Shown here: positions 1,830 to 50,924 of the stretch, one piece after another
How positions within the stretch are numbered: the first letter of the stretch is position 1
Layout of the letters: each line of letters starts with the position of its first letter
From: an uncultured Rhizobium sp.
GTDB taxonomy: Bacteria; Pseudomonadota; Alphaproteobacteria; SMXQ01
NCBI GenBank assembly: GCA_964628235.1
Contig: CAZVLU010000009.1
Coordinates: forward strand, 17,473-81,472
Length of the DNA: 64,000 nt
Reading direction: 5' to 3'
Program-made: the position numbers and the translations under genes
Notes under the pieces: generated by a model
The model's database searches: none
Told to the model about the DNA's origin: nothing
The model's input: the letters and a program-made list of their open reading frames with translations, nothing else

Positions 1830-2639
1830 ATGACCGACAACGCTCAAGGCCTGCGGGCCGCGCCGACGCCGCCGACAGGCGCGCTGCGCAACTCCTTCAT
1901 CAAGACCTTGAGCTACGGCGCCGTCGGCGCGTTCCTGATCTGGAGTTGGCAGGGCGCGGAGATGAACCCGCTCGCGCTGGTCCGCGAGTCTGGCAACATC
2001 GCCGAACTGGCCGGCGACTTCTTCCCGCCGGACTTCACCGAATGGCGTTTCTACCTGCGCGAGATGATCGTGACGCTCCAGCTCGCCGTGTGGGGCACGC
2101 TGCTCGCCATCATTCTCGCCGTGCCGTTCGGCCTGCTCTGCTCGGCCAATATCGCGCCTTGGTGGGTTTACCAGCCGATGCGCCGCCTGATGGACGCTTT
2201 CCGCGCCATCAACGAAATGGTCTTCGCCATGCTGTTCGTCGTCGCCGTCGGCCTCGGGCCCTTCGCCGGCGTGCTGGCGCTCTTCGTCCACACCACCGGC
2301 ATTCTCGCCAAACTGTTCTCCGAGGCCGTCGAATCGATCGATCCTCGCCCGGTCGAAGGCATCCGCGCCACCGGCGCGCTGGCCATCGAAGAGATCATCT
2401 TCGGCGTCATCCCCCAGGTCATGCCGCTGTGGATTTCCTATTCGCTCTATCGCTTCGAATCGAATGTCCGCTCGGCCACCGTGGTCGGCATGGTCGGCGC
2501 CGGCGGTATCGGCGTCGTCATGTGGGAGGGTATCCGCGGCTTCTATTTCGCCCAGACCTGCGCCGTCATCATCATGATCATCGTCACCGTCAGCATCGTC
2601 GATCTGATCTCGGCGCAGATCCGCAAACGCTTCATATGA
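1830..2639 (+). CDS. phnE: Phosphonate ABC transporter permease PhnE
   Basis: PhnE-type permease with multiple TM segments and motif [14 protein letters not shown]...[23 protein letters not shown]. Confidence 0.88.
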
Positions 2640-3142
2640 ACGTGCGAACTGCGGCGGATTTCGCCTTTCGCGCGATGAACGAGGCGGACATCGCCGCAGT
2701 CCGCGACCTGCATGCCCGCTCCTTTGCCGGCTTGGCGGGCGCGCAGCATACGCCAGCGGAAATCGCCGGCCATCTGGCGCTGATCGCAGACGAGCATTAC
2801 GCCGAGGAATTGCGCCGATGCCATGTCGGGCTGGCGCTCGACGGCGAGCAAATCGTCGCCACGGCGGGCTGGATCGAAGCTCAGGAGCAGATCGCCACCG
2901 CGCGCATCCGCAAGGTCTTCGTAGATCCCGCCATGGCGCGGCGCGGCCTCGGCAGCCGCATGGTGCGCCGCGCCGAGAGCGAAGCTTTGCGAGCCGGCTA
3001 TCGCCGTCTGATCGTGCGCGCCAACCTCAATGCCGTCTCGCTCTATGAAGCGCTCGGCTACATCGCCATAAGCGAAGCGCGCATGGCCACCCCAAACGGG
3101 GTCGAACTGCCGGTCGTCATGATGGAGAAGCCGCTCGGCTGA
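2636..3142 (+). CDS. GNAT family N-acetyltransferase inside the phn operon (PhnO-like by context)
   Basis: ATGA overlap with phnE stop. GNAT core [36 protein letters not shown]. Position between phnE and phnN. Confidence 0.7.
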
Positions 3143-14507: not shown

Positions 14508-14637
14508 GCCAACCGTCCTATTATTCTTATTCAACCAGCCACTTGCGTCCTTGCAGAAAACTGCGCGCGCTGCAGGCGGCAGATCCGGCACCTTGGCACC
14601 CCGAGTCCTTAACTGGCTAAGGGAACGATAACCACCG

Positions 14638-15348
14638 TTATGGTTCTATTGGAGGCCACGGAAAGGAGCCTGCAACGTAAAATTGATCCTTCAGGTATCG
14701 GAGGTCCATTTCCCACTGGCGGATAGCTAGTTGATATTTTTGTCGATCGTTCCTTTTAAAGTTGCAACAATTCACGGCTATCACGTTTGCCATTTTTTGC
14801 AGCCTTAATTCGGAACCTGGTTCACCGTATTCATCTCCGCAATATTCCGATACGGCATCCGGTAATGGGTGTCGGAAAAAGTAATTTAAAAAATCTCTCC
14901 GCTCCGTATCGGACATGCCATTAGCGCCCGAACGATAACCAGATATCCATAGTCCACTATGGTCTCTTGTAAAAATGGGGCCTCGCCCGCCGCCCGAAGG
15001 TGCGGGTTCAGAAATAGGCCACGGCCAAGGGGGTTCAGGGCACACAGGTTCTTCGGTTTTAATACCGAGCCAGTTTGCAACAAGGGAAGAAAAATCATCA
15101 AGATGATCGCTGGAGTCGGGATCACTCAATTGCCTCAACTCTAAATATTCCTGCTGCACCTTATTAAGGCTAAGACGAACAAATGCCTTAATCTGGAGAT
15201 CATAAATGCCTCCATCGATGTCGAGATCGCGATTCTCAAACAGCTCGAATAGCAAAGCCTGAATAATTTCCGGACTATTTAATGAGGATGAAAAAAGATC
15301 TTCGATTACATCGTCTTCTAAATTTTCGAGACCCGTAATATCCGCCAT
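14638..15348 (-). CDS. Hypothetical acidic protein in low-GC islet (no recognisable domain)
   Basis: 236-aa ORF filling a ~45% GC islet. Acidic N-terminus (LENLEDDVIEDLF) and Pro/Trp-rich middle (PVCPEPPWPWPISEPAP). Upstream sequence is AT-rich, promoter-like. Confidence 0.5.
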   Translation of the reverse strand: MADITGLENLEDDVIEDLFSSSLNSPEIIQALLFELFENRDLDIDGGIYDLQIKAFVRLSLNKVQQEYLELRQLSDPDSSDHLDDFSSLVANWLGIKTEEPVCPEPPWPWPISEPAPSGGGRGPIFTRDHSGLWISGYRSGANGMSDTERRDFLNYFFRHPLPDAVSEYCGDEYGEPGSELRLQKMANVIAVNCCNFKRNDRQKYQLAIRQWEMDLRYLKDQFYVAGSFPWPPIEP

Positions 15349-15592
15349 GATCTACCCCCGTAATTCACGATGCCCACGGCCACTTATTATATGTCACGCT
15401 CCGTAAGATTTATCGGGATATTATGCTCGCGTAATGAGCACCAGTTGGTGCCTCTGACGCATCGAGAATACAGGCGAAGGAAATGTATCCGAGTGCTTTA
15501 AACCCGTTGATTAAAAGCAGCATCGCTCACGCTAACATCGCCCAATTAGAGCTATTGTCATTTGGCTGCTGCTAAATCCTGGCAACGGTGAT

Positions 15593-16927
15593 GTGGTACC
15601 TTGCCTGCAACATGATCGTCTCGCCGTGAACTTCGCTGCCCGTCTTCAAGCCACGCTCGACCTGATGCAGGAGGTCGATAACGTCGCGCGTCCTGCCGAT
15701 GCTGTCGTCTCGGCGTGGTTTCGCGCCCGCCGCCATATCGGCGACGCCGATCGCGGCCAGATGTCCGACTTGCTCTATGCGCTGCTCCGCCATCACGCCC
15801 GCTTGGGTTGGTGGCTGGCAAAGCACGGCTGCGACGCCACGCCGCGCAGCCGCCTGCTGGCCTGGCTGGCGCTCGGCGAAGGCAAGACGCCGGATCAGCT
15901 TCGCGTCCTGTTCAACGGCGGACAGTCAGCGCCCGCCGCTTTGACGGATGAGGAGCGCGCGCTGCTGGTGAAATTGCAGGGCGGCACCATCGAGCATCCC
16001 GCCATGCCCGACGAGGTGCGCGGCGAATGTCCCGCCTGGGCGGTCGCAGCGTTGCGCAAACGCTTTGGCGATTCGTTTCCGCGCGAGATGGCGGCGCTGC
16101 TGACGACCGCCCCGCTCGATCTGCGCGTCAATCCGCTGAAAACCACGCGCGAGGCGATGCTGCGCGCGTTGCAGAGTCTCGGTCTGCCGGCCGAGGCGAC
16201 GCGCATGGCGCCTTACGGCATCCGCGTGAGCGAGCGGCCTTCGTTGGCCGGCCTGCCGATGTTGAAAGGCGGCGAGGTCGAGATTCAAGACGAAGGCTCG
16301 CAGCTTGTCGCCATGCTGGTCGATGCGAAACCCGGCGAGCGGGTGGTCGATTTCTGCGCCGGCGCCGGCGGCAAGACGCTGGCGATCGCCGTGCAGATGG
16401 AAAACAAAGGCCACGTCATCGCCTGCGACATCCTGGCCAATCGCTTGAAGCGCAGCGCCGAGCGTTTCCGCAATGCCGGGCTGCACAATATCGAGACCAA
16501 GCCGCTCAGCAGCGAAAGGGACCCTTGGGTGAAGCGGCACAAGGGCAATTTCGACCGCGTGCTGGTCGATGCGCCCTGCAGCGGCACCGGCACCTGGCGG
16601 CGCAACCCGGACGCCCGCTGGCGGCCTCTCGGGGCCGGGCTCGAGAGTTTGCTGCCGCTGCAAGCCAGCATTCTCGCCAGCGCCGCGCGCCTCGTGAAGC
16701 CCGGCGGCCGGCTCGTCTATGCCACCTGCTCCATGCTGCCCGAGGAGAACGAGGACCAGGTCGCCGCGTTCGTCGCGGCGCATCCGGACTTTCATGTCGT
16801 GCCGCTGCGGCAAGCCGCGCCGCACCTGACCTCGTCGGCGCATCCCGACTATTTGTCGCTGACGCCGGCGCGGCACAATACCGACGGCTTTTTCGCCGCC
16901 GTCATGCAGCGCGCCGCCAAGCCGTAA
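15593..16927 (+). CDS. RsmB/Sun (NOL1/NOP2) family SAM-dependent rRNA cytosine-C5 methyltransferase
   Basis: SAM-binding region DFCAGAGGKT, catalytic region DAPCSGTGTWRRNPDARW and YATCSMLPEENE. Exact start uncertain (GTG 15593 or ATG 15665). Confidence 0.8.
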   Translation: MVPCLQHDRLAVNFAARLQATLDLMQEVDNVARPADAVVSAWFRARRHIGDADRGQMSDLLYALLRHHARLGWWLAKHGCDATPRSRLLAWLALGEGKTPDQLRVLFNGGQSAPAALTDEERALLVKLQGGTIEHPAMPDEVRGECPAWAVAALRKRFGDSFPREMAALLTTAPLDLRVNPLKTTREAMLRALQSLGLPAEATRMAPYGIRVSERPSLAGLPMLKGGEVEIQDEGSQLVAMLVDAKPGERVVDFCAGAGGKTLAIAVQMENKGHVIACDILANRLKRSAERFRNAGLHNIETKPLSSERDPWVKRHKGNFDRVLVDAPCSGTGTWRRNPDARWRPLGAGLESLLPLQASILASAARLVKPGGRLVYATCSMLPEENEDQVAAFVAAHPDFHVVPLRQAAPHLTSSAHPDYLSLTPARHNTDGFFAAVMQRAAKP

Positions 16928-19048: not shown

Positions 19049-19135
19049 TGGTGCCCCCAGCCGGAATCGAACCAGCACGCCCTCACGGGCAACAGATTTT
19101 GAGTCTGCCGCGTCTACCAGTTCCGCCATAGGGGC
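19049..19135 (-). tRNA. tRNA-Leu (anticodon CAA), type II with long variable arm
   Basis: Reverse complement gives GCCCCTATGGCGGAACTGGTAGACGCGGCAGACTCAAAATCTGTTGCCCGTGAGGGCGTGCTGGTTCGATTCCGGCTGGGGGCACCA. 7-bp acceptor stem, CT-CAA-AA anticodon loop, GGTTCGATTCC T-arm, encoded CCA. Confidence 0.82.
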
Positions 19136-44867: not shown

Positions 44868-44952
44868 GCGGAATATTTATTTACACAAATAATATATGTA
44901 AATTTCAATATAAAACATTTTTTATACGTTGATTTGGCCAGGAACGACCCTT
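44868..44952 (+). promoter_or_regulatory. AT-rich promoter region of the sulfate transporter operon with inverted repeat TTTACA-N11-TGTAAA
   Basis: 85-bp spacer, >75% A+T. IR at ~44880-44902 (aTTTTACAcaaataatataTGTAAAtt). Confidence 0.4.
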
Positions 44953-46098
44953 ATGTTCCCGCCGTTGCTTTCCTTTGGGGCGTATCCCGTGACCATCGAC
45001 ATTCAGAGCCTCTACAAGCGTTTCGGCACGCAGCCGGTCCTGCGCGGCGTCGATCTCGATATCGGCGACGGCGAACTGGTGGCGCTGCTCGGCGCGTCGG
45101 GTTCGGGCAAGACGACTTTGCTGCGCATTCTCGCCGGCCTCGAGTTTCCCGACGGCGGCGACATCCTGGTCGACGGCGAAAGCTGGATCGCCAAGCCGAC
45201 GCAGGCGCGCAAGGTCGGCTTCGTCTTCCAGCATTACGCCCTGTTCGGCCATCTCACCGTCGCCGAGAACATCGCCTTCGGCTTGCGCGTGCGCGACAAA
45301 AAGCAGCGTCCCGATGAAGCGGCGATCCAAGCCAAGATCAAAGAGCTGCTCGAACTGATCCAACTGGGTACGCTAGGCCACCGCTATCCGTCGCAGCTCT
45401 CGGGCGGCCAGCGCCAGCGCGTGGCGCTCGCCCGCGCCCTCGCCATCGAGCCGGCGGTGCTGCTGCTCGACGAGCCGTTCGGCGCGTTGGATGCCGGCGT
45501 GCGCAAGGATCTCCGCCAATGGCTGCGCGATCTGCACAAGCAACTCGGCATGACCACGGTCTTCGTGACGCACGACCAGGAAGAAGCGCTGGAATTGGCC
45601 GACCGCGTCGTCATCCTCAACGAAGGCCGCATCGAGCAGATCGGCACGCCGGAAGAGGTTTACGACCATCCGGCGACGCCTTACGTGCTGCGTTTCCTCG
45701 GCGGCGCCAACGAATTGCCCGGCCATCTGCGCGCCGGCCGGATCGAAGTGGACGGCTTGGACACCAGCGCCGTCGAGCGCATCGCCGCCGGCGACGGCGC
45801 CGCCAGCCTGTTCGTCCGCCCGCATGACATCGACGTGCAGCCTGCCGACGACGGTGCGGCCAACATCCGTTCGGTCTTCATCACCGGCGCCCAGGCCCAT
45901 GTCGAGCTGACTCTCGCGGGTAAGCCGCTCACGGCGGACATCCGCCGCGACGTGGCGCGCGCCCGCGGCCTCAAGCCCGGCCAGCGCGTCCGCCTGAAAG
46001 CCATGCACGGCCGGTTGTTCACCGCGCCGCACGCCGCTGCGGCGAGCGCCCCAACCGCGTCGGACGCGCAAGACCGCGCCTGTATCGCGCGGCCCTGA
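44953..46098 (+). CDS. cysA: Sulfate/thiosulfate ABC transporter ATP-binding protein CysA
   Basis: Walker [12 protein letters not shown], signature [15 protein letters not shown], Walker [16 protein letters not shown]-like C-terminal domain. ATG 44953 chosen. Confidence 0.85.
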
Positions 46099-46166
46099 GC
46101 CGCCGGACCCGCGCGCCGCGCCGCGCACATTCATCGCATCTCGCTTACATCCGTGAACGAAAGACC

Positions 46167-47201
46167 ATGACCATGAAGACGCTCACCTCTCTCGCGCTCG
46201 CCGCCTCGCTGCTGGCCAGCACCCCCGCTTTCGCGCAAGTCAACGCGCCGGCCGACTACAAGGGCCCCAAGGAGATCCTCAACGTCTCCTACGACATCGC
46301 CCGCGAGCTCTACGTGAAGATCAACGAAGCCTTCACCGCCGACTGGCAGAAGAAGACCGGTCAGAAGATCGAAGTGAAGCAGTCGCATGCCGGCACTTCG
46401 ACGCAGGCGCGCGCCATTCTCGAAGGCCTGCCCGCCGATCTCGTCACCTTCAACCAGGTGCTCGACGTTCAAGTGCTGGCCGACAAGGGCAAGCTGATCC
46501 CCGCCGACTGGGCCAAGCGCCTGCCCAACGCCTCGTCGCCCTACTACTCGCTGCCGGCCTTCCTGGTGCGTCCGGGCAATCCGAAGAACATCAAGGACTG
46601 GAACGATCTGGTCCGCGCCGATGTGAAGTCCGTGTTCCCGAATCCGAAGACCTCGGGCAACGCGCGCTACACCTATCTCGGCGCTTACGCCTACGCTCTG
46701 TCGCAGAACAACAACGATCACGCCAAGGCGCAGGACTTCGTCAAAGCCTTCCTCGCCAACGTGCCGGTGTTCGACACCGGCGGCCGCGGCTCGACCACCA
46801 CCTTCGTCGAGCGCGGCATCGGCGACGTCCTCATCACCTTCGAGGCCGAAGTCAACGCGGTGAAGAAGGAATATGGCGACAAGGGCTACCAGATCGTCAT
46901 TCCGTCGCAGAGCATCCTGGCGGAATTCCCGGTGGCGCTGATCGACCGCAACGCCGACCGCAAGGGCACGCGTCCGCTCGCCCAGGCCTATCTCGACTAC
47001 CTCTACAGCGAGGAAGGCCAGGAGATCGTCGCCGGCTTCGCCAACCGCGTGCATCACCCGAAGGTGGTCGAGCGCCACAAGGCGTCCTATCCGCCGGTCA
47101 AGCTGGTCACCATCGACGAGGTGTTCGGCGGCTGGGAGAAGGCCAACAAAGACCACTTCGCCGAAGGCGGCATCCTCGACAAAGTCTTCGTGAAGCGTTG
47201 A
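46167..47201 (+). CDS. sbp: Sulfate ABC transporter periplasmic sulfate-binding protein
   Basis: Signal peptide MTMKTLTSLALAASLLASTPAFAQ. Sulfate-binding protein family (...KTSGNARYTYLGAYAYAL...). Confidence 0.88.
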   Translation: MTMKTLTSLALAASLLASTPAFAQVNAPADYKGPKEILNVSYDIARELYVKINEAFTADWQKKTGQKIEVKQSHAGTSTQARAILEGLPADLVTFNQVLDVQVLADKGKLIPADWAKRLPNASSPYYSLPAFLVRPGNPKNIKDWNDLVRADVKSVFPNPKTSGNARYTYLGAYAYALSQNNNDHAKAQDFVKAFLANVPVFDTGGRGSTTTFVERGIGDVLITFEAEVNAVKKEYGDKGYQIVIPSQSILAEFPVALIDRNADRKGTRPLAQAYLDYLYSEEGQEIVAGFANRVHHPKVVERHKASYPPVKLVTIDEVFGGWEKANKDHFAEGGILDKVFVKR

Positions 47202-47208
47202 GGCTTTA

Positions 47209-48105
47209 GTGACTCTCGCCGCAACCCCAGCCCTTTCTTTGGGCGATCAAGCGCAACCGCCGCGCCCTGCCGTCAAGGCTCGGGCGCGGCGTCGCGTGCT
47301 GCCCGGCTTCGGGCTGACGATGGGCGCGACATTGTTCTATCTCGCGCTGATCGTGCTGCTGCCGGTGGCGGCGCTCATTCTGAAAACCGCCGACGGCGGC
47401 TGGTTGCGCTTCTGGCAGGTGATCTCGAGCGAGCGTGCCGTCGCGGCCTTCCAGGTGACGATCGGCGCGGCGATTCTCGCCACGATTTTCAACGCTCTTT
47501 ACGGGCTGCTGATGGCCTGGGTGCTGGCGCGCTACCGTTTTCCCGGCCGGCGCAGTCTCGACGCGCTGATCGACCTGCCCTTCGCCCTGCCCACCGCCGT
47601 CGCCGGCATCGCGCTCACCGCGCTCTACGCCGGCAACGGCTGGTTCGGCGCGGTCTTGGAGCCGGCCGGCCTCAAAGTCGTCTACACCATCGTCGGCGTC
47701 GCCGTCGCCATGGCCTTCACCAGCGTGCCCTTCGTCGTGCGCACGGTGCAGCCGGTGATCGAGGAGCTGAAAGCCGAGACGGAAGAAGCCGCGCGCACGC
47801 TCGGCGCCAGCGACTGGCAAGTCTTCACCCGGGTAATCTATCCGGCGATTTTTCCCGCCCATCTCGCCGGCTGCGCCATGTCGTTCGCGCGCAGCATGGG
47901 CGAGTTCGGCGCGGTCATCTTCATCGCCGGCAACTTGCCGTTCCAGACCGAGATCGCGCCCTTGCTGATCTTCATCCGGCTGGAGGAGTACGATTATCCG
48001 GCCGCCAGCGCGATCGCCGTCGTGCTGCTCGCCGTCGCCTTCGTCCTGCTGCTGACCACCAACGCCATCCAGGCCTGGCGGCTCAAGCGGGTCGTGAAGG
48101 ACTAG
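47209..48105 (+). CDS. cysT: Sulfate ABC transporter permease CysT
   Basis: CysT-type permease, EAA-like loop (EEAARTLGASDWQVFTRV). GTG start. Confidence 0.85.
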   Translation: MTLAATPALSLGDQAQPPRPAVKARARRRVLPGFGLTMGATLFYLALIVLLPVAALILKTADGGWLRFWQVISSERAVAAFQVTIGAAILATIFNALYGLLMAWVLARYRFPGRRSLDALIDLPFALPTAVAGIALTALYAGNGWFGAVLEPAGLKVVYTIVGVAVAMAFTSVPFVVRTVQPVIEELKAETEEAARTLGASDWQVFTRVIYPAIFPAHLAGCAMSFARSMGEFGAVIFIAGNLPFQTEIAPLLIFIRLEEYDYPAASAIAVVLLAVAFVLLLTTNAIQAWRLKRVVKD

Positions 48106-48108
48106 GCC

Positions 48109-48954
48109 ATGGCGATCGCGCAGCCCGATACTCTTCTGCAAGCGCCGCCGAGCCGCGCGCCGCGCTGGCTGATCGGCGCCGGCATCGTGTTGACCGCGCT
48201 GTTCATCGTCGGGCCCTTGCTGATGATCTTCGACCAAGCCCTCGCCAAGGGCCTCGCGGTCTTTCGCCAGAACCTGTTCCACCCCGAGACGCTGCATGCC
48301 GTCTATCTGACCGTGCTCACCGCGCTGGTCGTCGTGCCGCTCAACATCCTGTTCGGCGTCGCCGCCGCCTGGGCCATCACCAAGTTCGAATTCCCCGGCA
48401 AGAAGCTGCTGCTGACCGCCATCGATATTCCCTTCTCGGTATCGCCGATCGTCGCCGGCGTCTGCTACCTGCTGCTCTACGGCTCGAACGGCCTGTTCGG
48501 CCCCTGGCTCGAAGCGGCCGACGTGCGCATCATGTTCAGCGTGCCGGCGATCATGCTGGTGACTCTGTTCGTCACCAGCCCCTTCGTGGCGCGCGAACTG
48601 ATTCCGCTGATGCAGGTGCAGGGCCGCGACCAGGAAGAGGTCGCCGCCACCTTGGGCGCCAGCGGCTGGCAGATTTTCCGCCGCGTCACCCTGCCCAACA
48701 TCAAATGGGCGCTGCTCTACGGCGCGGTGCTGTGCAACGCGCGCGCCATGGGCGAGTTCGGCGCCGTGTCGGTCGTCTCCGGCAACATCCGCGGCGAGAC
48801 CAACACCTTGCCGCTGCAAGTGCAGTTGCTCTATCACGACTACAACGCGACCGGCGCCTTCGCCGCCGCGACGATCCTCACGCTGCTCGCCTTCGTGACG
48901 CTGATCCTCAAGGCCTGGCTCGAACGCCACACGCGGGGACAGGGCGGGCATTGA
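48109..48954 (+). CDS. cysW: Sulfate ABC transporter permease CysW
   Basis: CysW-type permease (EEVAATLGASGWQIFRRVTLP). Confidence 0.85.
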   Translation: MAIAQPDTLLQAPPSRAPRWLIGAGIVLTALFIVGPLLMIFDQALAKGLAVFRQNLFHPETLHAVYLTVLTALVVVPLNILFGVAAAWAITKFEFPGKKLLLTAIDIPFSVSPIVAGVCYLLLYGSNGLFGPWLEAADVRIMFSVPAIMLVTLFVTSPFVARELIPLMQVQGRDQEEVAATLGASGWQIFRRVTLPNIKWALLYGAVLCNARAMGEFGAVSVVSGNIRGETNTLPLQVQLLYHDYNATGAFAAATILTLLAFVTLILKAWLERHTRGQGGH

Positions 48955-49021
48955 GGTTGCAAATAGCTGAAACGATTCTTCTTTTTTAAGGCCTTGATTT
49001 TCTTAAATAAACAACTACATT

Positions 49022-49780
49022 TTGAGTAAGCTATATGGGATAGATTTTATCCGCATGCCTTACTTAAAAGCTCCGATCACTGAGGCCGTATTGGATATCC
49101 GCGTGTCGCCACGCGCCGATATAACAGTCGAAGAGCTTGGCCAATTATCTAAGATATTTGGGTCGCGCTATCCCTCGTCTGAGGACGTTCTGCATTTCAC
49201 TGGAACGTACGAAATAGGCTCATCGAAAACTGAACCTGTTACCTCAGAAAAAATAGGCTTCATTTTTAAAAATGCCGAGCAAAGCAAAGTTTTTCAGGCC
49301 CAAAAACTAGGCTTCAGCTTTAACAAATTAGCTCCCTATGAAAGTTGGGAACTTTTTAGTGCCGAAGCTAAAGAGCTTTGGAAGCAATATAAGGCTATCG
49401 CAAAACCTCTAAATATTACCCGTGTAGGCCTGCGATATATCAACAAGCTCAATCTTCCCGTTGGCTTGAAGGACTTTGGAAAATACCTGAAGCAAGCTCC
49501 AGAATTGGCCCCGGGATTGCCTCAGGGGCTATCTAATTTTTTTACTCAATTTCAAATTCCATATGCAGATGTAGAAGCCATGTTGATCATAAACATGACT
49601 ATGGCCCCGCCCCCCGATAAAGAAACGGCATCGGTTATCTTGGATTTAGACGTGTTTCGCGCGCACTCAGTGCCGCAAGGCGATGCTGACTTATGGGCAT
49701 ATTTTGAAAAGCTACGCGCAAAGAAGAATGAGGCTTTTGAAGCCTGCATCACAGACGCCACAAGGGAGCTATTTAAATAA
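49022..49780 (+). CDS. Hypothetical protein, gene 1 of low-GC three-gene cassette (possibly TIGR04255-like; unverified)
   Basis: AT-rich codon usage, 252 aa from TTG 49022 (ATG at 49055 gives MPYLKAPITEAVLDIRV...). Contains RVGLRYINKLNLP. No motif I can assign with confidence. Confidence 0.55.
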   Translation: MSKLYGIDFIRMPYLKAPITEAVLDIRVSPRADITVEELGQLSKIFGSRYPSSEDVLHFTGTYEIGSSKTEPVTSEKIGFIFKNAEQSKVFQAQKLGFSFNKLAPYESWELFSAEAKELWKQYKAIAKPLNITRVGLRYINKLNLPVGLKDFGKYLKQAPELAPGLPQGLSNFFTQFQIPYADVEAMLIINMTMAPPPDKETASVILDLDVFRAHSVPQGDADLWAYFEKLRAKKNEAFEACITDATRELFK

Positions 49781-50115
49781 TGGCAACTGCCTTCTTCGCT
49801 GAACCTTTTACTGCGGATAGTGCTGTCGAGCAAAAGGAGCCGCTCTACATGTCGTTTTCACGAATGCACGAACTGCCTCGCATTCAGCACAAATATTTCA
49901 CCAAGCCTGAGACTGCGTTTGGCGCTGAATCTATGCATGTCAGTATCGTGGCACATGATGCCTTCCGCCGTATTATTCAACTAATTGGACCTTACAACTC
50001 TGTTATATCTCATGACCCATATGAGTATTTCAGTGTTGAATTGCCAACTCGCGAAGCTCGTGCTCGCGTAAATAATATTGGGCGAATTGTCCCTATGCAT
50101 CTAACTGATGATTAA
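49780..50115 (+). CDS. Hypothetical protein, gene 2 of low-GC cassette
   Basis: 111 aa. Start overlaps gene-1 stop (TAATG). No recognisable domain. Confidence 0.45.
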   Translation: MATAFFAEPFTADSAVEQKEPLYMSFSRMHELPRIQHKYFTKPETAFGAESMHVSIVAHDAFRRIIQLIGPYNSVISHDPYEYFSVELPTREARARVNNIGRIVPMHLTDD

Positions 50116-50117
50116 GC

Positions 50118-50639
50118 ATGCCGGCTTGGTGGCAACAGATCGATGGCCCCACTCTTAATCAGGGGGATCTGTTGAGAGGAATTTCTATTCCCATTATCAA
50201 ATCTAATTTTCCGGAAGCTGACGAAAACGGCAATGTACCGTTTGATATTGCGACCACGGACGTTCTCGTCCTTACCCAAAGCTGTGATTTGGTGAATGGT
50301 AAATCTGCAAATGTTCTAGTTGCTGTTGTCCACTCACTAATTGAGTTTGAGAAAACCAACCCGGCTTACGAAAAGGACAAAAGCAAGTGGGGGATGGTTT
50401 CAAAAGGCCGTGTCGAAGGATTGCACTTGTTGCAATCGCCTGAAGCGATGCCAGATGGGCGCAATTATTTACTGGCTGATTTTCGACATATCGTCAGTTT
50501 GCCTTATCAATACACTTCGCAATTTGCAGAAACTGCTGGTCAGAGATGGCGATTAACCTCGCCTTATCTAGAAGCTATGTCTCAAGCCTTTGGGAATCTC
50601 TTTATGCGAGTCGCGATCCCTAATCCAATACGTTTGTGA
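50118..50639 (+). CDS. Hypothetical protein, gene 3 of low-GC cassette
   Basis: 173 aa. ATG 2 nt after gene-2 stop. No recognisable domain. Followed by hairpin CGGGATAAcaaaatTTATCCCG at ~50713-50735. Confidence 0.5.
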   Translation: MPAWWQQIDGPTLNQGDLLRGISIPIIKSNFPEADENGNVPFDIATTDVLVLTQSCDLVNGKSANVLVAVVHSLIEFEKTNPAYEKDKSKWGMVSKGRVEGLHLLQSPEAMPDGRNYLLADFRHIVSLPYQYTSQFAETAGQRWRLTSPYLEAMSQAFGNLFMRVAIPNPIRL

Positions 50640-50924
50640 TTACTCCTGATCGTCTGTGGATAAACCTGTGGGCAATCCCCATATCTGTCCCTCGGATATT
50701 CGCGGTGGAAAGCCGGGATAACAAAATTTATCCCGAGAATTTCTCAGGTTTTTCAGTGGGTTATTGACTACCCATCCTCTGTGAAACATATCGCGAACAT
50801 TGTTTTGCGCGCGGCCCCGCCGTACACTCGTTTTTGCCCCAGTAAGGCAATTCCCCAGCGTTGCGCGTTTGGCCGCCATGACCTTCGAGTCTCGGCGGCG
50901 TTTTTATCGTCGGAGAAGCGGTCC

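What the first reader, a model, noticed from the sequence alone, without database searches (positions are those of the whole stretch)
48955..50760. Compositionally foreign three-gene cassette of unknown function inserted between cysW and nrdJ
- **Composition:** immediately after the cysW stop the sequence switches from ~65-70% GC to roughly 40-45% GC (by eye) for ~1.8 kb, then returns to high GC in the nrdJ leader.
- **Gene content:** three same-strand ORFs of 252, 111 and 173 aa, translationally coupled (TAATG overlap at ~49778-49782; 2-nt spacer before ATG 50118).
- **Codon usage:** A/T-ending codons (AAA, GAA, TTT, ATT) atypical for this genome.
- **Domains:** I can place none of the three in a characterised family. 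There is no P-loop, HNH, PD-(D/E)xK, HEPN or HTH that I can see. Gene 1 has an RVGLRYINKL stretch that I loosely associate with a sporadically distributed uncharacterised family (TIGR04255-like), unverified.
- **Termination:** a hairpin (CGGGATAA-caaaat-TTATCCCG, ~50713-50735) follows gene 3.
- **Mobility:** no integrase, transposase or flanking direct repeats were found, so the insertion mechanism is not evident.

A compact, coupled, compositionally alien operon of small unknown proteins between two housekeeping loci is the typical footprint of accessory cargo (anti-phage defence, toxin-antitoxin or anti-MGE module). It is the best candidate for an undescribed system in this window.
Basis: partly seen in the sequence, partly recalled or inferred. 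Interest (0 to 1): 0.8.

Follow-up and report, generated by a model that had tools for sequence, protein, structure and literature searches.

The report
Foreign three-gene toxin–antitoxin-like cassette
A 1.8-kb piece of foreign DNA between a sulfate-transporter gene and a ribonucleotide-reductase gene carries what looks like a three-part toxin–antitoxin (possibly anti-phage) module: a MazF-shaped toxin that no database recognises, a fast-evolving antitoxin, and an uncharacterised 'TIGR04255' protein that heads similar modules with other toxins on plasmids and phages.

Summary
Window 48955-50760 has 44.5% GC against 64.7% for the window, and third-codon-position GC (GC3) of 0.39-0.45 against 0.85-0.91 in the flanking genes. 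It lies between confirmed cysW and nrdJ and holds three coupled genes.

- **g1 (49055-49780, 241 aa):** a true TIGR04255 member (134 bits, cutoff 30).
- **g2 (49780-50115, 111 aa):** varies greatly in sequence but keeps a C-terminal motif with an acidic tail, wherever a g3 homologue occurs. Where g1 is absent, this motif sits behind classic antitoxin-type N-terminal domains.

The triad recurs in about 60 of 80 loci across many phyla, and the three genes co-evolve. Other TIGR04255 genes head the same three-gene layout with Zeta, HEPN or unknown third genes, on plasmids, viral contigs and a Ralstonia phage.

Best reading: a horizontally acquired tripartite type II TA-like module. The role of the TIGR04255 protein is inferred only (regulator, stabiliser or sensor). 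I found no literature on it. No toxicity, target or defence function has been tested.

The parts
48955..50760 (+). Low-GC island (foreign cassette) between the cysW stop (48954) and the nrdJ leader
   Evidence: GC is 0.445 against 0.647 for the window. GC3 is 0.39-0.45 against 0.85-0.91 in the flanking genes.
48955..49054 (+). AT-rich leader upstream of g1. It is the presumed promoter or operator region, which is inferred. Read-through from cysW is also possible.
   Evidence: Read from the sequence. The consensus scan found no sigma-70-like site here.
49055..49780 (+). g1: TIGR04255-family protein, 241 aa. It is the conserved 'head' gene of the module.
49780..50115 (+). g2: putative antitoxin, 111 aa. 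The N-terminus is hypervariable. The conserved C-terminal motif is EYFSVELPTREARARVNNIGRIVPMHLTDD, ending in an acidic tail.
   Evidence: Its start overlaps the g1 stop (TAATG). The C-terminal motif aligns across 75 loci. Mean pairwise identity is 0.27, against 0.49 for g1 and 0.58 for g3. In two-gene relatives the motif is fused to antitoxin-type N-terminal domains.
50118..50639 (+). g3: putative toxin with a MazF/Kid/CcdB fold, 173 aa. It belongs to a sequence family with no database annotation.
50714..50735 (+). 8-bp hairpin, CGGGATAA-CAAAAT-TTATCCCG, 75 nt after the g3 stop. It is at best a weak terminator.
   Evidence: Read from the sequence. No T-run follows it, and the scan did not report it on the + strand.

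Best explanation
The island is a horizontally acquired tripartite type II toxin-antitoxin-like module, possibly an abortive-infection or defence module. Steps marked 'inferred' are not shown by any result here.

- **Expression.** The three genes form one operon with translational coupling.
- **g3, the toxin.** g3 is a toxin with the MazF/CcdB SH3-like barrel fold. It most probably arrests growth as an endoribonuclease (inferred). The fold is shown, but the MazF catalytic residues cannot be aligned.
- **g2, the antitoxin.** g2 is its labile cognate antitoxin. Its conserved C-terminal hairpin-like motif and acidic tail are inferred to occupy the toxin's substrate groove, as MazE does in MazF.
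- **g1, the accessory protein.** g1 (TIGR04255) is a third, accessory component. It is inferred to bind the N-terminal part of g2. It would supply what two-gene relatives get from a folded N-terminal antitoxin domain: stabilisation, regulated release or operator binding. This is comparable to the SecB-like chaperone of TAC systems or to omega in omega-epsilon-zeta.
- **Common ligand.** g1's invariant polar cluster is kept regardless of which toxin pair follows. This suggests that g1 recognises a common ligand or trigger.
- **Outcome.** Loss or titration of g1 or g2 would free g3.
For: **Foreign origin**
- Composition and codon usage are far from the host's.
- In 62 other hosts the cassette has lower GC than its flanks (mean -0.053, and never more than 0.05 higher).

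**Toxin**

**Antitoxin**
- g2 sits immediately upstream of g3, in mazE-mazF order.
- It evolves fastest of the three genes (identity 0.27).
- It keeps one C-terminal motif with an acidic tail in all 75 unique g2 sequences aligned.
- About 15 loci, and further contigs, have only g2-g3, inserted among housekeeping genes as chromosomal TA pairs usually are.
- In these two-gene loci the motif follows classic antitoxin-type N-termini:
  - L035: PF01954 AF2212-like, 35.7 bits against a gathering threshold of 21.6.
  - L083: sub-threshold RHH hits.

**Functional unit**
- g1 lies upstream of g3 in about 60 of 80 genome loci, from Planctomycetota, Cyanobacteria, Proteobacteria, Nitrospirota, Acidobacteriota and others.
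- It is again upstream of 29-32% identical g3 homologues in viral contigs L192-L195.
- Pairwise identities of g1 and g3 correlate at r = 0.915 (Mantel, 0 of 999 permutations).

**Modularity of g1.** Other TIGR04255 genes head the same overlapping three-gene layout with different third genes:
- Zeta_toxin (Vibrio plasmid, 46.8 bits).
- HEPN (Thermus pTB1, 27.4 bits).
- An unknown 124-157-aa family in 10 viral contigs and in Ralstonia phage YO139_2.

**Mobile or defence context**
- L001 lies next to DndB, GIY-YIG and N6_Mtase/Eco57I genes.
- L008 lies next to a tyrosine integrase.
- In Oscillatoria PCC 7112 the triad lies between the pump (ACR_tran) and membrane-fusion-protein genes of an RND efflux cluster.

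**Conserved site in g1**
- Invariant residues include R127, Y128, N130, D197, D199 and T233, with E10, R123 and N225 nearly invariant. They hold across partners.
Against: - No sequence-level link to MazF/PemK exists. Pfam PF02452 does not match.
- The MazF Arg/Thr catalytic dyad has no clear counterpart. The invariant TQSCD motif, with a Cys at a helix N-terminus, could mean a different chemistry or a non-enzymatic poison like CcdB.
- g2 of the window has no recognisable domain. The N-terminal 'QGxEGR' motif seen in many triads is degenerate in it.
- PADLOC has no model for any of the three proteins.
- g3 was not found in the phage or plasmid reference collections.
- Toxicity, neutralisation and any phage phenotype are untested.
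Confidence: 0.65

Rival explanations
1. It is a plain selfish addiction module with no defence role. g1 would simply be the operon's transcriptional autorepressor, like omega, compensating for an antitoxin that lacks a DNA-binding domain.
For: - Two-gene relatives carry antitoxin-type N-terminal domains, whereas triad g2 proteins lack them.
- g1 is always the first gene.
- Foldseek's most frequent hits are the DNA-binding TBP (E about 1e-4).
- Many copies sit alone among housekeeping genes.
Against: - TM-scores to TBP are only about 0.3, with rmsd above 10 A.
- No HTH or RHH domain was detected in g1.
- Invariant acidic residues (E10, D197, D199) are unusual for a DNA-binding surface.
- TIGR04255 triads occur in temperate-phage and viral contigs and next to restriction or Dnd genes, which fits defence cargo.
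Confidence: 0.2
2. g1 is an enzyme rather than a passive partner. It would be a minimal ATP-dependent kinase or ligase of the glutamine-synthetase/guanido-kinase 'cradle' type, modifying g2, g3 or a target, as McsB or PafA mark proteins for degradation.
For: - Invariant Arg and Asp/Glu residues lie on beta-strands (R123, R127, D197, D199, E10). They are conserved regardless of the partner toxin.
Against: - Foldseek prefers TBP and AdoMetDC.
- No nucleotide-binding motif was recognised by Pfam or NCBIfam.
- Active-site superposition could not be done with the tools available.
Confidence: 0.1
3. The cassette is not a TA system. g3 would be a Cys-dependent hydrolase or peptidase, or a non-toxic nucleic-acid-binding protein, and the triad would serve some other accessory function. 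Alternatively the cassette is a decaying remnant.
For: - C56 is invariant at a helix N-terminus, preceded by invariant Q54, and H103 is nearly invariant.
- No known TA or defence HMM matches.
Against: - MazF, CcdB and CptN hits score two to three times higher than peptidase hits.
- The antitoxin-like behaviour of g2, and the swapping with Zeta and HEPN toxins in sister modules, argue for a toxin role.
- All three ORFs are intact with their invariant residues. A JGI metagenome contig carries the same three genes between the same flanking genes, with 96-100% identical products, and two Logan read-set contigs carry the cassette genes with identical g1.
Confidence: 0.05

Closest known systems
MazEF / Kid-Kis / CcdAB type II toxin-antitoxin systems (MazF/CcdB fold)
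   Same: - The gene order is antitoxin then toxin, with near-overlap.
- The antitoxin evolves fast and has an acidic C-terminus.
- The distribution is patchy and consistent with horizontal transfer.
   Different: - There is no sequence-level membership in PemK_toxin (PF02452).
- The toxin is 173 aa against about 110, with extra helices.
- It has a different set of invariant residues (TQSCD, R143, R164).
- The antitoxin lacks an AbrB or RHH domain.
- A third conserved gene, TIGR04255, heads the operon.
Toxin-antitoxin-chaperone (TAC) systems, e.g. M. tuberculosis HigBA-SecB-like, and CmdTAC
   Same: - The architecture is tripartite, with an accessory protein inferred to act through a non-neutralising extension of the antitoxin.
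- The accessory gene combines with different toxin families.
- Relatives occur on phages and in defence contexts.
   Different: - It is encoded first rather than last.
- The putative recognition segment is at the antitoxin's N-terminus, not the C-terminus.
- No interaction has been shown.
omega-epsilon-zeta (three-gene TA with a separate regulator)
   Same: - The first gene is a separate accessory or regulatory component upstream of an antitoxin-toxin pair.
- A sister TIGR04255 module on a Vibrio plasmid does carry a Zeta-family toxin.
   Different: - omega is a 71-aa RHH repressor. TIGR04255 is a protein of about 245 aa with a double beta-alpha-beta4-alpha repeat and no recognisable DNA-binding motif.
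- The toxin in this window is not a zeta kinase.
Panacea (DUF4065) hyperpromiscuous antitoxin domain (PMC8832971, PMC10440598)
   Same: One conserved component is combined in evolution with many unrelated toxin domains. It can act as an accessory part while a separate short element does the neutralising.
   Different: - Panacea is a domain within the antitoxin, whereas TIGR04255 is a separate protein.
- There is no sequence or fold relationship.

Membership tests
TIGR04255 family (NCBIfam) | Full-length match to the curated HMM above its cutoff of 30 bits | tested here: met
   g1 scores 134 bits, E 7.6e-39, covering profile positions 4-252 of 252.
MazF/PemK toxin family (Pfam PF02452) | Sequence match to the PemK_toxin HMM | tested here: not met
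   No Pfam family matches at E <= 1. PDB profile searches found no MazF.
MazF/CcdB structural superfamily | SH3-like barrel fold shared by MazF, Kid and CcdB | tested here: met
   [not shown]
MazF/PemK toxin family | Catalytic Arg (beta1-beta2 loop) and Thr/Ser dyad for RNA cleavage | tested here: inconclusive
   No conserved Arg falls in the corresponding loop (residues 27-42, variable, pLDDT 73). The invariant residues lie elsewhere (T53, Q54, C56, D57, R143, R164). Structural superposition was not available.
Type II toxin-antitoxin system | Small co-directional, overlapping or adjacent gene pair that moves as a unit and is patchily distributed | tested here: met
   There is a 2-nt spacer between g2 and g3. 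The g2-g3 pair is present in all loci with a readable upstream region. The pair is found across many phyla and at different insertion sites.
Type II toxin-antitoxin system | The toxin inhibits growth, and the antitoxin protein binds and neutralises it | not testable with these tools
   This needs expression and rescue assays, or at least a complex prediction. No multimer prediction was available.
Toxin-antitoxin-chaperone (TAC) | SecB-like chaperone as the third component | tested here: not met
   [not shown]
omega-epsilon-zeta | RHH omega repressor and zeta kinase toxin | tested here: not met
   There is no RHH or Zeta_toxin in the window's genes. Zeta_toxin appears only in the sister module on Vibrio plasmid CP063527.
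Known anti-phage defence systems (PADLOC-DB v2) | Match of any component to a defence-system HMM | tested here: not met
   All three proteins give 0 families at E <= 1. Only sister modules show weak PDC-M32A/B similarity, at 15-21 bits.

The most novel reading that the evidence does not exclude
TIGR04255 proteins define a widespread class of tripartite conflict modules that has not been recognised. A conserved head protein of about 245 aa has a TBP-like double-repeat topology and an invariant polar site. It would act as the common sensor, regulator or stabiliser for interchangeable antitoxin-toxin pairs. The partners seen here are the unannotated MazF-fold family of this window, Zeta, HEPN and at least one unknown effector family. 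The modules occur on chromosomes, plasmids and temperate phages. This would be functionally analogous to the SecB chaperone of TAC defence systems but structurally unrelated to it.
Probability: 0.4. Interest if true: 0.75.

Novelty: new variant of a known kind. Interest (0 to 1): 0.6.

Why it matters
- **A function for two unannotated families.** If confirmed, this would assign one to two sizeable families with no known function. The g3 family has about 3,000 clusters at 50% identity and no Pfam or NCBIfam model. TIGR04255 is named but uncharacterised.
- **A new accessory component.** It would add a new kind of accessory protein to the short list of tripartite TA and defence architectures (SecB-type TAC, omega-epsilon-zeta, HipBST).
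- **A discovery handle.** TIGR04255 heads modules with several unrelated toxins, including on phages. It could therefore be used to find new toxins and antitoxins, as Panacea and SecB-like chaperones have been. It is also a candidate phage-sensing element.
- **Testability.** The system is compact (1.6 kb), so it is easy to test.

Tried and rejected
- **Curated libraries.** Pfam, PADLOC and PHROGs gave nothing usable for any of the three proteins. NCBIfam recognised only g1.
- **PDB sequence searches.** Searches with profiles of g1 and g3 gave only spurious hits: a portal protein, RpoS, and a repeat protein (9hnh) that looks designed.
- **'TQS' motif.** From memory I thought g3's 'TQS' matched the E. 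coli MazF 'CTTQSK' motif. The hhalign register and the secondary structure place TQSCD after beta2, not at the MazF Thr52 position, so I dropped the idea.
- **Empty-site and synteny test.**
  - An exact-protein lookup of CysW found nothing.
  - The single metagenome scan with CysW returned only relatives at 65% identity or less. None had nrdJ, g1 or g3 nearby.
  - The insertion therefore could not be dated, and no empty site can be shown.
- **Insertion mechanism.** No flanking direct or inverted repeats of note, no nearby tRNA gene and no Rfam element were found.
- **Promoter and terminator scans.** They were no better than shuffled controls.
- **Reference phages and plasmids.** g3 gave no tblastn match.
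- **Crinalium plasmid.** The third gene of its TIGR04255 module is unrelated to g3.
- **Literature.** No paper mentions TIGR04255, CHP04255 or IPR026349. The NetFlax paper and a 2026 defence-discovery paper do not describe this triad.
- **afdb50 fold search.** It was unavailable.
- **Host taxon.** It could not be established.
Full report
**1. The observation.**
- Between the cysW stop (48954) and about 50760, GC drops from 0.63-0.72 to 0.41-0.47.
- The 1806-bp island is 0.445 GC. The window is 0.647 (sd 0.034 for windows of this size), and the lowest non-overlapping window is 0.552.
- GC3 is 0.446, 0.393 and 0.425 for the three genes. It is 0.85-0.91 for the five flanking genes.
- The flanks are confirmed as CysW (TIGR02140, 388 bits) and adenosylcobalamin-dependent NrdJ (TIGR02504, 594 bits).
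- g1 more likely begins at ATG 49055 (241 aa). Homologues start 'M.Y..APITEA', and an independent JGI gene call on a near-identical contig gives 241 aa.
- The hairpin at 50714-50735 exists but has no T-run.
- There are no flanking repeats, no nearby tRNA gene and no Rfam element.

**2. Gene 1.**
- It is a bona fide TIGR04255 protein (134 bits against a cutoff of 30). Pfam, PADLOC and PHROGs do not recognise it.
- A confident AF2 model (pLDDT 88.6) shows two beta-alpha-beta4-alpha repeats.
- Foldseek lists TBP and AdoMetDC at E about 1e-4, but with TM about 0.3.
- The fold is therefore a TBP-like or 'cradle' topology with no assignable family.
- Twelve diverse members (22-52% identity to g1) share these invariant residues: Y95, W98, R127, Y128, I129, N130, P135, D197, D199, F228 and T233. 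E10, R123 and N225 are nearly invariant.

**3. Gene 3.**
- No curated library recognises it.
- It is not an orphan. The word-indexed search found 104 homologues. An exhaustive profile search found 3067 clusters at 50% identity with E <= 1e-3, and 619 with E <= 1e-30. Nearly all of the 150 best-scoring hits listed are single-domain proteins of about 170-190 aa.
- At sequence level no link to MazF is detectable.
- The invariant residues are Q15, G16, D17, T53, Q54, S55, C56, D57, H103, R143, R145 and R164. They do not map onto the MazF Arg/Thr dyad.
- The fold is therefore shown, and the activity is inferred.

**4. Gene 2.**
- By the word-indexed search it is almost an orphan. The only hit is a 96% identical protein on a metagenome contig with the same cysW-triad synteny.
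- Reading the gene immediately upstream of g3 homologues in 75 loci shows a shared C-terminal module, consensus Y..VPPK....V.VR....GR.KP.PY..D(E)n, behind a hypervariable N-terminus. The window's g2 fits it: EYFSVELPTREARARVNNIGRIVPMHLTDD.
- g2 is the fastest-evolving of the three genes. Mean pairwise identity is 0.27, against 0.49 for g1 and 0.58 for g3.
- About 15 of 80 genome loci, plus further contigs, have only g2-g3.
- In these loci the same C-terminal motif follows classic antitoxin-type N-terminal regions:
  - L035 carries an AF2212-like/DUF104 domain, 35.7 bits against a gathering threshold of 21.6.
  - L083 gives sub-threshold RHH hits.
  - L056 looks Phd-like, by eye only.
- L034 is a deletion that fuses the g1 N-terminus to the g2 motif.
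- This is the pattern expected of a type II antitoxin: a toxin-binding C-terminus and an exchangeable N-terminal module.

**5. The triad is a unit.**
- TIGR04255 lies about 300 bp upstream of g3 in about 60 of 80 genome loci. These come from Planctomycetota, Cyanobacteria (including a Nostoc plasmid), Alpha-, Beta- and Gammaproteobacteria, Nitrospirota, Acidobacteriota, Chlamydiota and others.
- It is again upstream of 29-32% identical g3 homologues in IMG/VR contigs L192-L195 (TIGR04255 at 75-118 bits).
- g1 and g3 pairwise identities correlate at r = 0.915 (Spearman 0.70; Mantel 0 of 999 permutations).
- Insertion sites differ:
  - between the pump (ACR_tran) and membrane-fusion-protein genes of an RND efflux cluster in Oscillatoria PCC 7112;
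  - next to DndB, GIY-YIG and a type II/IV-like methylase in L001;
  - next to a tyrosine integrase in L008.
- In 62 hosts the cassette has on average 5.3 GC points less than its flanks, and never more than 5 points more.

**6. TIGR04255 heads other modules.** More distant TIGR04255 genes, all above the curated cutoff, start the same overlapping three-gene layout with other third genes:
- a Zeta_toxin on Vibrio parahaemolyticus plasmid CP063527 (PF06414, 46.8 bits);
- a HEPN protein on Thermus brockianus pTB1 (PF05168, 27.4 bits);
- an unknown 124-157-aa family in viral contigs L092-L103 and at the end of Ralstonia phage YO139_2, a P2-like phage;
- unrelated proteins on a Crinalium plasmid.

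The middle and third genes of the viral type show only weak similarity to the PADLOC candidate system PDC-M32.

**7. Interpretation.**
- The best-supported reading is a horizontally acquired tripartite type II TA-like module. It has a MazF/CcdB-fold toxin (g3), its cognate antitoxin (g2) and a TIGR04255 accessory protein (g1).
- *Shown:* foreign composition, family membership of g1, the fold of g3, conservation and co-evolution of the triad, motif conservation in g2, and modular reuse of TIGR04255 with Pfam-defined toxins.
- *Inferred:* toxicity and RNA targeting by g3, neutralisation through the g2 C-terminus, binding of g1 to the g2 N-terminus, and g1's role as stabiliser, regulator or sensor.
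- The argument for the g1 role has two parts. First, two-gene relatives have a folded N-terminal antitoxin domain where triads have g1. Second, g1's polar invariant residues are independent of the partner toxin, which points to a common ligand or trigger rather than mere partner binding.
- A defence (abortive-infection) function is plausible from the phage and defence-island contexts, but it is untested.

**8. Rivals.**
- g1 is an omega-like autorepressor in a purely selfish module.
- g1 is a minimal ATP-dependent modifying enzyme. The hits to phosphagen kinases, McsB, GCL and PafA are fold-level only.
- g3 is a Cys-dependent hydrolase or is non-toxic.

**9. Novelty.**
- No paper in the searchable library mentions TIGR04255.
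- Recent TA-network and defence-discovery papers that I read do not describe this triad.
- Membership fails for PemK_toxin, SecB-type TAC, omega-epsilon-zeta and PADLOC systems, or cannot be shown (see the membership table).
- I rate it a new variant of a known kind: a tripartite type II TA-like system with a new accessory component and an unannotated toxin family.

**10. Limits.**
- The host taxon could not be established.
- No empty cysW-nrdJ site was found, because no close relatives were retrieved.
- No multimer prediction or structural superposition was available.
- The afdb50 library was unavailable.

Noticed in passing
window 14600-15600 (ORF 14638-15348, - strand): A second low-GC islet (0.41-0.54 against about 0.65). 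It holds a single 236-aa ORF with no Pfam or NCBIfam match, so it may be another horizontally acquired gene.
   Followed up: partly
window 19049-19135 (- strand): The only tRNA gene in the window, tRNA-Leu(CAA). It lies 30 kb from the cassette, so it is not an integration site for it.
   Followed up: yes
window 44929-48954: A sulfate ABC transporter cluster lies directly upstream of the cassette. Its order is ATPase (CysA-type), substrate-binding protein, CysT, CysW, all with NCBIfam support. The cassette begins immediately after the cysW stop.
   Followed up: yes
L034:2363-2590 (Pirellulales MAG): A deletion derivative. The N-terminal residues of the TIGR04255 gene (YPSAPMSEALIDVQV) are fused in frame to the antitoxin C-terminal motif, directly upstream of a g3 homologue.
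   Followed up: no
L033:698-1219 (+) and 2417-2959 (-) (Dehalococcoidia MAG contig): Two g3-family genes in opposite orientation on one 4.6-kb contig.
   Followed up: no
L104:371-2061 (Ralstonia phage YO139_2, ON170239, record end): An unannotated P2-like phage record carries a TIGR04255 gene (151 bits), then a 165-aa gene and a 146-aa gene, at its genome end. The same module type occurs in IMG/VR contigs L094 and L095. Its third gene has no Pfam match.
   Followed up: partly
L196:3122-3346 (IMG/VR contig): A two-gene variant. Its antitoxin seems to have a C2H2-like zinc-finger N-terminus (CPKCP...HLSDVH, by eye only) in front of the conserved C-terminal motif.
   Followed up: no
L003:4953-6537 (Oscillatoria nigro-viridis PCC 7112, CP003614): The triad sits between the pump (ACR_tran) and membrane-fusion-protein genes of an RND efflux cluster next to copper-related genes (HMA, P-type ATPase). 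This is another example of insertion within a housekeeping or operon context.
   Followed up: no
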